Shown here one piece after another: positions 1 to 26,550 of a stretch of DNA of 41,660 bases. Source of the DNA: Candidatus Nanosyncoccus sp. (lineage in GTDB: Bacteria; Patescibacteriota; Saccharimonadia; Saccharimonadales; Saccharimonadaceae); NCBI GenBank assembly GCA_045657985.1, contig JAZOUF010000029.1, forward strand, positions 1 to 41,660. The letters are read 5' to 3'. Each line of letters starts with the position of its first letter. The stretch's first letter is position 1. Below the pieces are notes generated by a model. The model searched no databases. It had not been told where the DNA came from and saw only the letters and a program-made list of their open reading frames with translations. The position numbers and the translations under genes were made by a program.

Positions 1-399
1 GACCAACCTATTATTATTACGGTTAGCGTCAGTACTATCGCCCACACTAGCAAGCAAATTATAACCATCCGCTATATTACTGCCAGCCGTTACTGTCACT
101 GTATTACTATATGCCGCCGTACCAGGCGCCAAGTCCTCAATTACGAAACCAGTATTAGTATCAAAGCTCACTCTGACCGTCGGTACAAAAGTATATTCTA
201 AGTCTATACTATTATTATAAGTTAAAGCAGAAGCATGATTAAAATAAATATGAGTAATGATGAAGGGTGATAATGATGATAATAATATAGTAAAGACGGG
301 TCCTGCCAGTCTCCTCCCCCAAAATTTTACTATCGTAAACATTTTGGGGGTCCCCCTCCGACTGTCACCCGTCTTTATTCTTTCTATGTTTTTCTTCAT
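1..399 (-). CDS. Secreted/surface protein, N-terminal part (runs off the left edge; absent from the ORF track)
   Basis: Manual translation from ATG at 399 has no stop down to position 1: MKKNIERIK-TGDSRRGTPKMFTIVKFWGRRLAGPV-FTILLSSLSPFIITHIYFNHASA|LTYNNSIDLEYTFVPTVRVSFDTNTGFVIEDLAPGTAAYSNTVTVTAGSN... GAGGT lies just upstream; hydrophobic stretch and A-S-A signal peptidase I motif present. Confidence 0.85.
   Translation of the reverse strand, partial: MKKNIERIKTGDSRRGTPKMFTIVKFWGRRLAGPVFTILLSSLSPFIITHIYFNHASALTYNNSIDLEYTFVPTVRVSFDTNTGFVIEDLAPGTAAYSNTVTVTAGSNIADGYNLLASVGDSTDANRNNNRLV
295..373 (-). repeat. Intragenic hairpin element, copy 1 (in signal peptide of surface protein)
   Basis: Minus strand: GACGGGT GA CAGTC GGAGGGGA CCCCCAAAAT G TTTAC GATA GTAAA ATTTTGGGGG AGGA GACTG GCAGG ACCCGTC. 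Same termini and loop layout as the queA and tgt copies. Confidence 0.85.
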
Positions 400-8472: not shown

Positions 8473-9561
8473 ATGATGTTAGTTTCCGATTATAATTACA
8501 ATTTACCTGATGACCGCATTGCGAAATTCCCCCCTAAAGAGCGCGGCACTACTAGGCTCCTAGTTTTAAACCGCAAAACCGGTGCTATTCAAGATTCCTA
8601 TTATCGCAATTTGGATGAATTCTTGAACCCAGGCGATGTCTTAATTCTAAATGACACTCGTGTTATGCAGTCGCGTCTTTTTTGCACGCTTCCGGATGGA
8701 CGCAAACGTGAACTCGTAGTGCTTGAGAAACACGGCGACGAACCACAGCGCGTGATGTATCGTGGTAAATTGCACGACGGCGATGTAGTTACCGTTGAAA
8801 CCGAGCAAATCACGATTAAACAAATCCTAGGCAACGGTATCGCCGAAGTTGAGTCTGACACCCCTCTTGCTAAATTAGCCGAGAAGTATGGTACTGTTCC
8901 CTTGCCACCCTACCTTCATCGTGACGCCACAGATGACGATAAAAAACGCTATCAAACTGTCTGGGCGAAAAACATAGGCTCCGCCGCCGCCCCTACTGCT
9001 TCACTCAATATGACCGAAGATTTACTTGACAGACTAAAAGCCAAAGGTGTAATTGTTAAATATCTTACGCTCCACGTTGGTCTTGGCACTTTCCTGCCCA
9101 TGCGTACGGATAAGGTCGAGGACCATAAAATGCATTCCGAATGGTACCATATTCCAGAAGACACGATTGAAGCGATCAATGCCATTCGTGAGCAGACGGG
9201 TGACGGGCTTGGTAGGGTTCCCACAGAGCACCCAAAGGGTGGAGCTGTGGGAAGGAAAAGTCCGGCAGGACCCGTCAAGTTCCCGCCAAGAGTCATCGCT
9301 TTAGGTACTACCGTTGCTCGTACCTTGGAGTATTATGCCAGGACTGGCAAAACCGAAGGCGAAGATGATATTTTCATTTATCCAGGTTTTGAATTCCAAA
9401 TCGTTGACGCTCTCCTTACGAATTTTCATGCGCCAAAATCAACTGTGCTTATGCTAGCTAGCGCTTTTGCTGGCTGGGAACATTTACATTCTGCCTATGA
9501 TTATGCGGTGCAAAATCATTACAACTTTCTAAGTTACGGAGACTCAATGTTAATATGCTAA
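8473..9561 (+). CDS. queA: S-adenosylmethionine:tRNA ribosyltransferase-isomerase with ~30 aa in-frame insertion
   Basis: LNDTRV, PLPPYL, YQTV, AAPTASL, LHVGLGTF, GTT, LLTNFHAPKST, SYGDSMLI. The second ATG (8476) fits the promoter spacing better. Confidence 0.96.
   Translation: MMLVSDYNYNLPDDRIAKFPPKERGTTRLLVLNRKTGAIQDSYYRNLDEFLNPGDVLILNDTRVMQSRLFCTLPDGRKRELVVLEKHGDEPQRVMYRGKLHDGDVVTVETEQITIKQILGNGIAEVESDTPLAKLAEKYGTVPLPPYLHRDATDDDKKRYQTVWAKNIGSAAAPTASLNMTEDLLDRLKAKGVIVKYLTLHVGLGTFLPMRTDKVEDHKMHSEWYHIPEDTIEAINAIREQTGDGLGRVPTEHPKGGAVGRKSPAGPVKFPPRVIALGTTVARTLEYYARTGKTEGEDDIFIYPGFEFQIVDALLTNFHAPKSTVLMLASAFAGWEHLHSAYDYAVQNHYNFLSYGDSMLIC
9195..9276 (+). repeat. Intragenic hairpin element, copy 2 (in queA)
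   Basis: GACGGGT GA CGGGCTT GGTAGGG TTCCCACAG AG CACCC AAA GGGTG GAG CTGTGGGAA GGAA AAGTCCG GCAGG ACCCGTC (82 nt). Confidence 0.92.
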
Positions 9562-10856
9562 AGTTTGATATTGAACATCGCGATGGCCTTGCTCGCGTTG
9601 GCGTCATTCATACTCCACACGGTGATATAAAAACGCCAGCCTTCGTTGGTGCTGCCACCCGTGCCACGGTCAAAGCACTCACCATGAAAGAAATGCACGA
9701 CCTAGGTAGTCGAGCTATACTCGCCAACACTTACCACTTATTATTGCGCCCAGGCACAAATATAATCAAGCAGGCTGGAGGGCTTGCTGAGTTTAGTAGT
9801 TGGCATGCCCCCACCTTTACTGACTCGGGCGGTTTTCAGATTTTTTCTTTGCCCGACGTCAAAATTACCGAGCAGGGTGCTAAATTCAAATCGCACATCG
9901 ACGGTGCGAAATTTGAAATGACTCCAGAATCCTCCATGCAAGCCCAGTGGGCCATCGGTGCCGACATCCACATGGCGTTTGATCACCTCGCAAAATCGGA
10001 AAGTTACGAAGACATGAAAGAAGCTATGCAACGCACCCATCGCTGGCTCGACCGATGCGTCGCCGAGCACGCCAGACTAGCCAATGAATCAACTGGTAGG
10101 GGTGTCCGGAATGTCTCTCTCGAAGGGTCTTCGAAACACGGCAGCGCGAGGATGAGTGTATATTATGGTGTAGATGGGCGGGTGACGGACTTGGAAGGGA
10201 TCCCGCAGAGCACCCGAAGGGTGGAGCTGCGGGAGGGAAAAGTCCGGCAGGACCCGCCCGTAAGTCAACAGTATTTATATGCGGTCGTCCAAGGTGGCAC
10301 CTTCAACGACCTCCGCGCCGAGTCTGCAAAGTACTGTGCATCCAGGCCTGTCGACGGCTTTGGCATCGGCGGAGTATTCACGGCCGATAAAATGGGTGAG
10401 ATGCTCCAAACTGTCAACTCGATTTTACCAGAAAATAAACCCCGCCACCTTCTCGGCATGGGACAGGAACCGATCGATTTATTTGTTGGTGCTGAATTTG
10501 GCTGTGATACTTTTGACTGTGTCGGCCCTACTCGTATGGCCAGAAACGGCTCTTTGTACACCAAGGATGGTCGCATCAATATCAAAAATGCCAAATATCG
10601 CGAAGATTTTGCACCGCTCATGGATGATTGCATCTGTGAATGTTGTCAGAATTACACTCGCGCTTACCTCCATCATCTCTTCAAAACTGACGAGATAACC
10701 GCTAAAGTTCTCGCGTCGATTCATAACGAGTATTTTATCGTCCACACCGTTGACCAAATTCGCGAGTCTCTCGAAAACGGCACTTTTAAAGATTACCAAA
10801 AATCATTCCTCACCCGCTATTATCAAGGCAAAATCCCCTTCTGTATTACATTGTAA
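9555..10856 (+). CDS. tgt: tRNA-guanine transglycosylase with ~60 aa in-frame insertion
   Basis: TPAF, LANTYHL, TDSGGFQ, VQGG, FDCV.PTR.ARNG, Zn site CICECC...HN. Confidence 0.96.
   Translation: MLKFDIEHRDGLARVGVIHTPHGDIKTPAFVGAATRATVKALTMKEMHDLGSRAILANTYHLLLRPGTNIIKQAGGLAEFSSWHAPTFTDSGGFQIFSLPDVKITEQGAKFKSHIDGAKFEMTPESSMQAQWAIGADIHMAFDHLAKSESYEDMKEAMQRTHRWLDRCVAEHARLANESTGRGVRNVSLEGSSKHGSARMSVYYGVDGRVTDLEGIPQSTRRVELREGKVRQDPPVSQQYLYAVVQGGTFNDLRAESAKYCASRPVDGFGIGGVFTADKMGEMLQTVNSILPENKPRHLLGMGQEPIDLFVGAEFGCDTFDCVGPTRMARNGSLYTKDGRINIKNAKYREDFAPLMDDCICECCQNYTRAYLHHLFKTDEITAKVLASIHNEYFIVHTVDQIRESLENGTFKDYQKSFLTRYYQGKIPFCITL
10177..10258 (+). repeat. Intragenic hairpin element, copy 3 (in tgt)
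   Basis: 82 nt, 73/82 identical to the queA copy by manual alignment; read in a different frame. Confidence 0.92.
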
Positions 10857-26387: not shown

Positions 26388-26441
26388 AAAAAGTTCCTTT
26401 GGTTAATTAATAAAATAAAAGTTAGCTAATTGTTAAACTCC

Positions 26442-26514
26442 GTCACCAAATAATTATAAGAATAATTCCTCGGTAGCATTATTAAAGGCAAACCTCGCTA
26501 CTGTCTTTGGTAAC
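26442..26514 (-). promoter_or_regulatory. L10 leader (ribosomal protein autoregulatory RNA)
   Basis: CCAAAGACAGTAGC...TTAA...GCTACCGAGG core with outer GTTACCAAA/TTTGGTGAC helix, upstream of rplJ. Confidence 0.85.
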
Positions 26515-26521
26515 TAAAAAC

Positions 26522-26550
26522 ATTATACCCTACATAATCTCAAAAGTCAA
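26522..26550 (-). promoter_or_regulatory. Sigma70 promoter of rplJL
   Basis: TTGACT-N17-TATAAT. Confidence 0.8.

What the first reader, a model, noticed from the sequence alone, without database searches (positions are those of the whole stretch)
9195..10258. queA and tgt copies show compensatory changes and are read in different frames
Seen in sequence: the two 82 nt copies differ at 9 positions. Positions 2/81 and 29/54 are double compensatory changes (A-U to G-C), 13 converts G-U to A-U, 19 and 40 are in loops, and 24/59 change together at a helix end. queA reads the element as TGDGLGRVPTEHPKGGAVGRKSPAGPV; tgt reads it as GRVTDLEGIPQSTRRVELREGKVRQDP. Conservation therefore cannot be at the peptide level. 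The invariant GGGTGAC puts a TGA stop in the third sense frame, and only the two open sense frames are used. Inference: selection acts on nucleic-acid structure. Hits in two adjacent genes of the same queuosine operon suggest local hopping or co-regulation.
Basis: seen in the sequence. Interest (0 to 1): 0.8.

Follow-up and report, generated by a model that had tools for sequence, protein, structure and literature searches.

The report
Replication-oriented hairpin repeats inside Saccharibacteria genes
The two look-alike stretches in queA and tgt are copies of a small hairpin repeat that sits in frame in many unrelated genes of rumen Saccharibacteria and nearly always lies on the C-rich DNA strand whichever way its host gene runs, so it is likely selfish DNA that inserts as a folded single strand during replication rather than a queuosine regulator.

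Summary
Observation confirmed: two 82-nt copies, 9 differences, stem-preserving changes, different frames. The queuosine-specific reading fails. The element belongs to a dispersed hairpin family (16 copies in this genome; the base motif is in 110 of 301 genus genomes) lying in frame in many housekeeping genes, on either strand. Both sites are loop hot spots that relatives leave empty or fill with other hairpin families. Covariation is strong: 98% of cells paired, 11 of 28 pairs with double changes. The main addition is that orientation follows GC skew, not transcription. In 208 of 230 copies the folding strand lies on the C-rich strand, in sense genes, antisense genes and between genes; this strand is likely the one copied as Okazaki fragments. 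I found no target-site duplication and none of the transposase families tested. Best reading: an RPE-like selfish hairpin, likely built in as single-stranded DNA at the fork and read through as a tolerated loop. The mobilising enzyme is unidentified and expression is untested. The scan reported such Saccharibacteria elements before on other DNA, one note with a chromosome-orientation bias; my searches found no paper on them.

The parts
8473..9561 (+). queA, 362 aa, open frame through the insert
   Evidence: ORF; Pfam Queuosine_synth in two stretches; B. subtilis QueA aligns to residues 6-243 and 273-361 with no gap on its own side
9195..9276 (+). Hairpin element copy 1, in the QueA loop between helix 229-242 and strand 274-277
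   Evidence: model pLDDT below 50 at residues 245-268
9183..9283 (+). Whole variable segment of queA; one low-depth contig of another run has 2 letters in its place (net 99 nt, 33 codons)
   Evidence: tables 5 and 5c (one contig, depth 4); matches the 17-aa short loop class
9555..10856 (+). tgt, 433 aa, open frame through the insert
   Evidence: ORF; Pfam TGT; solved Tgt structures align either side of the insert
10095..10156 (+). Truncated 5' half of a longer, branched relative of the element, an earlier occupant of the same Tgt loop (ends approximate)
   Evidence: Local alignment to intact long inserts in the tgt loop of L180, L201, L221, L256; a close relative continues as a long element from 10118
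10177..10258 (+). Hairpin element copy 2, in the Tgt loop between helix 151-181 and strand 241-245
   Evidence: model pLDDT below 50 at residues 181-236; absent from G110
295..373 (-). Third family member in the window (different apical stem), in frame near the start of a 133-aa ORF; an exception to the strand rule

Best explanation
The two segments are copies of a small dispersed hairpin repeat that sits in frame in QueA, Tgt and many unrelated proteins and lies on the C-rich strand whichever way the host gene runs; it is likely selfish DNA that is built in as a folded single strand on the Okazaki-fragment side of the replication fork and is likely translated as a tolerated loop. Shown: dispersed family, covarying fold with a conserved base, strand rule, filled, empty and replaced alleles at the same loops, ragged junctions without target duplication, loss by deletion between short repeats. 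Inferred: the C-rich strand is the lagging-strand sequence; the purine-rich strand is the one that folds; a single-stranded copy (a displaced flap or DNA taken up from outside) anneals by short flanking matches to the exposed lagging-strand template with the hairpin looped out, using host enzymes; only in-frame events in tolerant loops survive.
For: Family: 8 close copies by blastn, 16 with the base motif in this genome, 110 of 301 genus genomes with a reversed-pattern control of 0, 9 of 301 phylum genomes. Fold. Strand rule: folding strand on the C-rich strand (skew at four-fold sites) in 111 of 120 sense-ORF, 40 of 41 antisense-ORF and 57 of 69 intergenic copies, while only about 45% of genes have a C-rich sense strand; 55 of 58 after collapsing by host family and orientation; 170 of 188 without queA/tgt. 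Within-gene control: where tgt (L082) or queA (L033) lies on the G-rich strand the element is antisense, and a gene that usually has antisense copies has a sense copy where it is C-rich (L305). Near-identical copies at unrelated sites, taken as young, are already biased, 23 of 26. Ribosomal-protein operons are on the G-rich strand in 4 of 4 genomes and in the window. No excess of direct repeats at the flanks (4.4% against 3.5% shuffled) but an excess of inverted ones (13.3% against 3.6%). Apical loops: 50 GNA triloops, 18 GNYA, 9 GNRA and no UNCG among 239; that GNA loops are DNA-stable motifs is recalled. Lagging-strand oligos are built in up to 30-fold better in an Okazaki-like way (PMC3167615, passages).
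Against: No mobilising enzyme or intermediate was found, so the insertion step is inference. 22 of 230 copies break the rule, including window 295-373 and two queA copies; outside the genus it is weaker, 12 of 17. G.T against A.C mismatches barely tell which strand folds (14 v 11 in stem 2, 18 v 8 in the outer stem), and both strands fold well. tRNA genes gave no support for the leading-strand call (18 of 44 G-rich). Copies were collected with a fixed end pattern, many are orthologous, and host ORFs were called by being open, so in-frame status is partly built in. Reverse transcriptases are common in the genus (97 of 151).
Confidence: 0.6

Rival explanations
1. Insertion is orientation-blind, and the bias comes from loss: copies whose better-folding strand lies on the single-stranded lagging template fold, stall the fork and are deleted.
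For: The purine strand is the more stable in 216 of 219 copies. Deletions between short repeats are seen (69, 75 and 96 nt). Chromosomal integrons keep the folding attC strand on the leading template, which limits excision (PMC8946536, passages).
Against: Young copies are as biased (23 of 26) as the rest (185 of 204), and 7 of 9 orphan 3' ends lie in the usual orientation. The stability gap is only about 3 kcal/mol.
Confidence: 0.2
2. The element is a non-autonomous passenger moved in trans by an enzyme not yet identified (HUH, DDE, IS110 or a DGR/retron-type reverse transcriptase) that recognises the conserved base of the hairpin.
For: The base motif with its mismatch and 3-nt bulge is kept across distant families, as a protein-binding site would be. 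RT is more frequent in element-positive genomes (43 of 55 against 53 of 95, p = 0.008, not corrected for kinship). IS200/IS605 elements are replication-coupled (PMC6006769, passages).
Against: Y1 transposase in 7 of 151 genomes, all 7 without the element. No DDE_5 or IS110 hit in 5 of 5 element-rich genomes. The RT link vanishes at 5 or more copies (17 of 23 against 79 of 127, p = 0.35); 6 such genomes and 3 of 5 have no RT hit. RT loci share no clear sequence with the elements. Junctions are ragged. IS200/IS605 use the lagging template, the opposite strand to this element's purine strand. Only five enzyme families were tested, in incomplete genomes.
Confidence: 0.2
3. The hairpin is a cis-regulatory mRNA structure that co-regulates queA and tgt.
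For: Both genes of one operon carry it in sense orientation, and it folds as RNA with z below -5. These two loops are very often filled in the genus (20 of 76 and 36 of 79).
Against: Same family in unrelated genes and in 41 antisense positions. Most relatives have short loops (35 of 75 short at both). At least 19 and 22 changes of insert class on a 75-genome tree. Sense orientation here is what the strand rule predicts, since 70 of 76 queA and 73 of 79 tgt genes are C-rich. No Rfam match.
Confidence: 0.04
4. The element is a tiny intron or bypassed segment removed from the RNA or skipped by the ribosome.
For: Stable RNA hairpin that brings both ends together.
Against: No TGA-bearing copy was seen in the stop frame of an ORF (0 of 92 sense copies with that motif), while TGG variants use that frame (8 of 8). 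Six copies end an upstream ORF with their TGA; I did not test each for read-through. Antisense copies cannot present this fold in the message. Ends are ragged.
Confidence: 0.03
5. The compensatory changes come from template-switch correction of quasi-palindromes, with no selection on structure.
For: Excess inverted matches in unique flanks and a copy inverted between identical arms in two paralogous genes show that templated inverted copying occurs.
Against: Such correction would erase internal loops, yet the mismatch, bulge and purine loops persist across the phylum, and the non-Watson-Crick A.G/G.A swap recurs in 7 of 7 classes. It may supply the changes but does not explain what is kept.
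Confidence: 0.1

Closest known systems
Rickettsia palindromic elements (RPE; as summarised in PMC2229807 and PMC10969869)
   Same: Small hairpin repeats in several families, in frame in unrelated conserved genes of a reduced-genome, host-dependent bacterium; target duplication uncertain; no demonstrated mobiliser.
   Different: Shorter (about 65-95 nt core against 105-150), other phylum, read in all six frames rather than as one conserved peptide, modular stems, repeated replacement at the same loops, and a replication-strand rule that the passages I read do not mention. Sequence homology to RPEs was not tested.
CGTC- and GTAG-tagged REPs, REPINs and their RAYT transposases (PMC3733652, PMC6006769)
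   Same: Palindromic repeats, some inside ORFs; many copies here end in CGTC; CGTC REPs also lack a linked transposase.
   Different: The tetranucleotide here is base-paired and variable rather than an unpaired tag; the element is 2-4 times longer with several stems; no Y1 transposase in element-carrying genomes.
Classical bacterial MITEs (Correia, ERIC, RUP; PMC2229807)
   Same: Under 200 bp, non-coding origin, terminal pairing, long stem-loop, can fuse in frame.
   Different: GC-rich, no TA termini, no target-site duplication, ragged ends, terminal stem sequence varies between copies.
Integron attC sites and IS200/IS605 ends (PMC8946536, PMC6006769)
   Same: Folded single-stranded DNA with conserved unpaired bases and a replication-strand bias; attC folding strands also sit on the leading template in large chromosomal arrays.
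   Different: No cassette array; the only tyrosine recombinase shared by the 5 genomes tested is a single conserved one, probably Xer; IS200/IS605 act on the lagging template with precise ends.

Membership tests
RPE-like coding palindromic elements (works like) | Dispersed multi-copy hairpin repeat | tested here: met
   16 copies in this genome; z below -5
RPE-like coding palindromic elements (works like) | In-frame insertion in unrelated conserved proteins, absent from orthologs | tested here: met
RPE-like coding palindromic elements (works like) | Insert is translated and the protein stays active | not testable with these tools
   No RNA holder listed; the models show only low-confidence loops
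RPE proper (Rickettsia) | One conserved peptide per family, 105-150 bp | tested here: not met
   All six frames used; 82 nt here
RPE proper (Rickettsia) | Sequence homology to RPE-1 to RPE-10 | not tested
   No RPE sequence was fetched
Classical MITE | Target-site duplication, TA termini | tested here: not met
   Direct repeats of 6 nt or more in 4.4% of flanks against 3.5% shuffled; filled/empty pairs show replacement
Classical MITE | Cognate transposase with matching ends | tested here: inconclusive
   None for DDE_5 or IS110 in 5 genomes; other DDE families not searched
REP/REPIN (GTAG or CGTC) | Unpaired terminal tetranucleotide on a 20-40 bp stem-loop | tested here: not met
   Terminal bases are paired and covary
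REP/REPIN (GTAG or CGTC) | RAYT (Y1 HUH) gene in the genome | tested here: not met
   0 in own genome; 7 of 151 in the genus, none with the element
Known structured RNA family | Rfam match at gathering score | tested here: not met
   Only an L10 leader in the window
Kink-turn RNA motif | Tandem G.A/A.G pairs next to a 3-nt bulge (consensus recalled) | tested here: not met
   By inspection, the position that should be A swaps with its partner (A.G to G.A) and the other is G
Retron msDNA or DGR product | Template sequence beside an RT gene | tested here: not met
   No match better than E = 0.05 between 14 RT-region queries and 219 elements

The most novel reading that the evidence does not exclude
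Patescibacteria carry a class of transposase-free, structure-only mobile DNA: short modular hairpins that host replication proteins build into the nascent lagging strand like a natural recombineering oligo, recognised through a conserved bulged base, and that keep overwriting the same surface loops of essential enzymes. This would be the first mechanistic handle on how RPE-type coding palindromes spread.
Probability: 0.3. Interest if true: 0.8.

Novelty: new variant of a known kind. Interest (0 to 1): 0.55.

Why it matters
How RPE-type elements move is still open in the reviews I read. This family gives hundreds of copies, filled/empty/replaced alleles between close relatives, and a strand rule that ties it to replication, so mechanisms can be tested. 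It also shows fast turnover of 25-60 residue loops in core enzymes of a minimal genome. It is not a queuosine control element, and such inserts should be masked in annotation and phylogeny of this group.

Tried and rejected
Rfam scan of the window: nothing on the element. IMG/VR pattern scan: 28 stretches, nearly all GC-rich chance matches without the fold; L134 may be real and was not followed. Two copies 430 nt apart in G012 do not flank a transposase; one is in priA, one beside a gene start. Y1 transposase, DDE_5, IS110: not found where the element is. Tyrosine recombinase and GIY-YIG: one conserved gene shared by all 5 genomes, probably Xer and UvrC by length, not checked further. RT: common, mostly DGR-like or retron-like, below all NCBIfam cut-offs, no sequence link. 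Expression: no RNA holder listed, so splicing and translation are untested. tRNA orientation did not help to call the leading strand. Kink-turn reading rejected by inspection. Literature searches for a description in Saccharibacteria or Patescibacteria listed none; subscription papers are not covered and no supplements were read. A sequence look-up in the scan's own notes found no look-alike, and none for this genome.

Full report
Observation. The window holds queA (8473-9561) and tgt (9555-10856) on the + strand. The strongest repeat in the window is the pair at 9195-9276 and 10177-10258. Both copies fold into a four-stem hairpin far beyond shuffled controls, as DNA or RNA, the + strand better than the - strand. 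Rfam has no match. The closest Tgt relatives come from records titled Candidatus Nanosyncoccus or Saccharibacteria from ruminant gut, so I infer the window is from that genus; its genome is 728 kb and 43.7% GC.

It is a dispersed family. Blastn finds 8 near-full copies in this genome and the shared base motif finds 16. By their translations the hosts include murB, tsaE, miaA, mnmA, argS and ileS (names from my recognition of the sequences, not from a family scan), in sense and antisense. The motif CGGGTRRC...CAGGACCCG occurs in 110 of 301 genus genomes with a reversed-pattern control of 0, and in 9 of 301 phylum genomes, in several distant families, with 2 control hits. These distant hits keep the fold. 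The element is modular: one lower stem is found with several apical stems.

The two loops are hot spots. Among intact genes from 80 loci plus the window, 20 of 76 queA loops are 43 aa or longer (usual 17-25) and 36 of 79 tgt loops are 45 aa or longer (usual 21-32); the long ones are hairpins of several families. These loci were the best hits to a query that contains the insert, so the fractions may be high. On a tree of 75 genomes built without the loops, insert class changes at least 19 times at queA and 22 times at tgt (FastTree; gain and loss cannot be told apart). G110, about 93% identical over 528 kb, has the queA copy but a 22-aa tgt loop, 168 nt shorter. Contigs from other runs show further tgt alleles in close relatives: another family member, an intact long element, and 141- or 145-letter replacements. 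The window's tgt insert is composite: the 5' half of a long branched relative (about 10095-10156) followed by the 82-nt copy. Solved QueA and Tgt sequences align on both sides of the inserts, and the models place both inserts as low-confidence segments between a helix and a strand (mean pLDDT 63 and 69, so only the placement is used).

Structure, not peptide, is conserved. In 21 subfamily copies 98.0% of cells pair, 11 of 28 pairs change on both sides, and no shuffle reaches this; slid controls pair 41-53% (relatedness inflates the shuffle test). Across 219 distinct copies the mismatch next to the base is A.G in 175 and G.A in 33, and both forms occur in all 7 apical classes. Among 149 copies in ORFs of at least 150 aa all six frames are used; the third sense frame is used only by the 8 copies whose TGA is TGG. 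ORFs were called by being open, so a bypassed stop would have been filed as intergenic; six copies end an upstream ORF and were not checked for read-through.

Orientation follows the skew strand. Measured at four-fold degenerate sites within 1.5 kb, the purine-rich strand lies on the C-rich strand in 111 of 120 sense-ORF, 40 of 41 antisense-ORF and 57 of 69 intergenic copies, 208 of 230 in all; about 55% of 588 and 620 background genes have a G-rich sense strand. Collapsing by host family and orientation gives 55 of 58; leaving out queA and tgt gives 170 of 188; outside the genus 12 of 17. Where queA or tgt lies on the G-rich strand the element can flip to antisense (L033, L082), though L003 and L312 do not follow the rule. 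rplB loci are G-rich on their sense strand in 4 of 4 genomes and rplJ-rplL run on the G-rich minus strand of the window; G excess marks the leading strand (PMC8941118, search listing only). tRNA genes did not help (18 of 44). I therefore infer that the folding strand has the sequence of Okazaki fragments. queA-tgt runs against its neighbours and is C-rich in 70 of 76 and 73 of 79 genomes, which explains why both copies here are sense. Young copies are as biased as old ones (23 of 26 against 185 of 204), which favours bias at insertion over bias at loss. I obtained this result before reading the scan's note e1-5192323, which reports a same-direction bias for a 127-nt element in another genome.

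Junctions and enzymes. Filled and empty sites show replacement of a few to tens of bases, other elements at the same site, and deletions between short repeats that leave a 3' stub. Of 40 length differences of 45-200 nt between G000 and G110, 29 have a strongly folding longer allele and 20 of those are multiples of three. Flank consensus fades about 7 nt beyond the CGGG stem; there is no excess of direct repeats but a 3.7-fold excess of inverted matches. Y1 transposase occurs in 7 of 151 genomes, none with the element; DDE_5 and IS110 in 0 of 5 element-rich genomes. RT genes are in 97 of 151 genomes, weakly associated with presence but not with high copy number, missing from several element-rich genomes, and without sequence link. 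These are partial tests on incomplete genomes.

Mechanism. The best fit is a selfish hairpin built in as single-stranded DNA on the lagging side of the fork: the stem brings the ends together, short flanks anneal to the exposed template, and host enzymes seal it, as with lagging-strand oligos in recombineering (PMC3167615, passages). The strand rule, ragged junctions and DNA-type loops (50 GNA triloops, no UNCG among 239; their DNA stability is recalled) fit; the source of the single strand and any recognising protein are unknown. Biased loss, as argued for chromosomal integrons (PMC8946536, passages), and an unidentified trans-acting enzyme remain real rivals.

Comparison and novelty. It works like the Rickettsia palindromic elements (PMC2229807, parts 1 and 2 of 3 of the text; PMC10969869, passages) but is not shown to be one. 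It fails the defining tests for classical MITEs and for tagged REPs (PMC3733652, passages; PMC6006769, passages). Seven searches listed no paper describing such elements in this phylum; the library lacks most subscription papers. The scan's notes hold 33 findings with these words in at least 29 genomes, of which I saw 8, so the phenomenon is not new to the scan. Verdict: real feature, new variant of a known kind, interest 0.55.

Noticed in passing
G000 C63:4052-6420; C27:19660-19844, C45:4761-4948, C15:1-144: A DGR-like cassette (291-aa ORF, 439-aa RT, template repeat on the opposite strand) with three dispersed repeats 84-86% identical to the template, differing mostly at template adenines by eye, plus more distant copies.
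   Followed up: partly
Genus-wide: RT genes in 97 of 151 genomes of about 0.7 Mb, often several per genome; those inspected look DGR-like or retron-like, all below NCBIfam cut-offs.
   Followed up: partly
window 295-373 (-) and G000 C23:390-468: Two paralogous small genes carry related elements at the same codon between the same arms but in opposite orientation; G110 lacks the C23 insert.
   Followed up: partly
G000 C15:1977-2054: The element replaces the start of a miaA-like gene and its left flank supplies the ATG.
   Followed up: partly
G000 C22, C1, C4, C32, C37, C61 against G110: Several other hairpin families of 80-180 nt differ between the two close relatives, often at the same sites as this family.
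   Followed up: no
L134 (IMGVR_UViG_3300036760_000384): The one viral-contig hit of 28 that keeps the base fold with a branched top.
   Followed up: no
window 26406-26528 (-): Rfam L10 leader upstream of rplJ-rplL.
   Followed up: no
L108 (G110 C13) and G000 C41:1-690: Retron-like RT (best NCBIfam hit St85 family, below cut-off) with a structured upstream region and a short ORF.
   Followed up: partly
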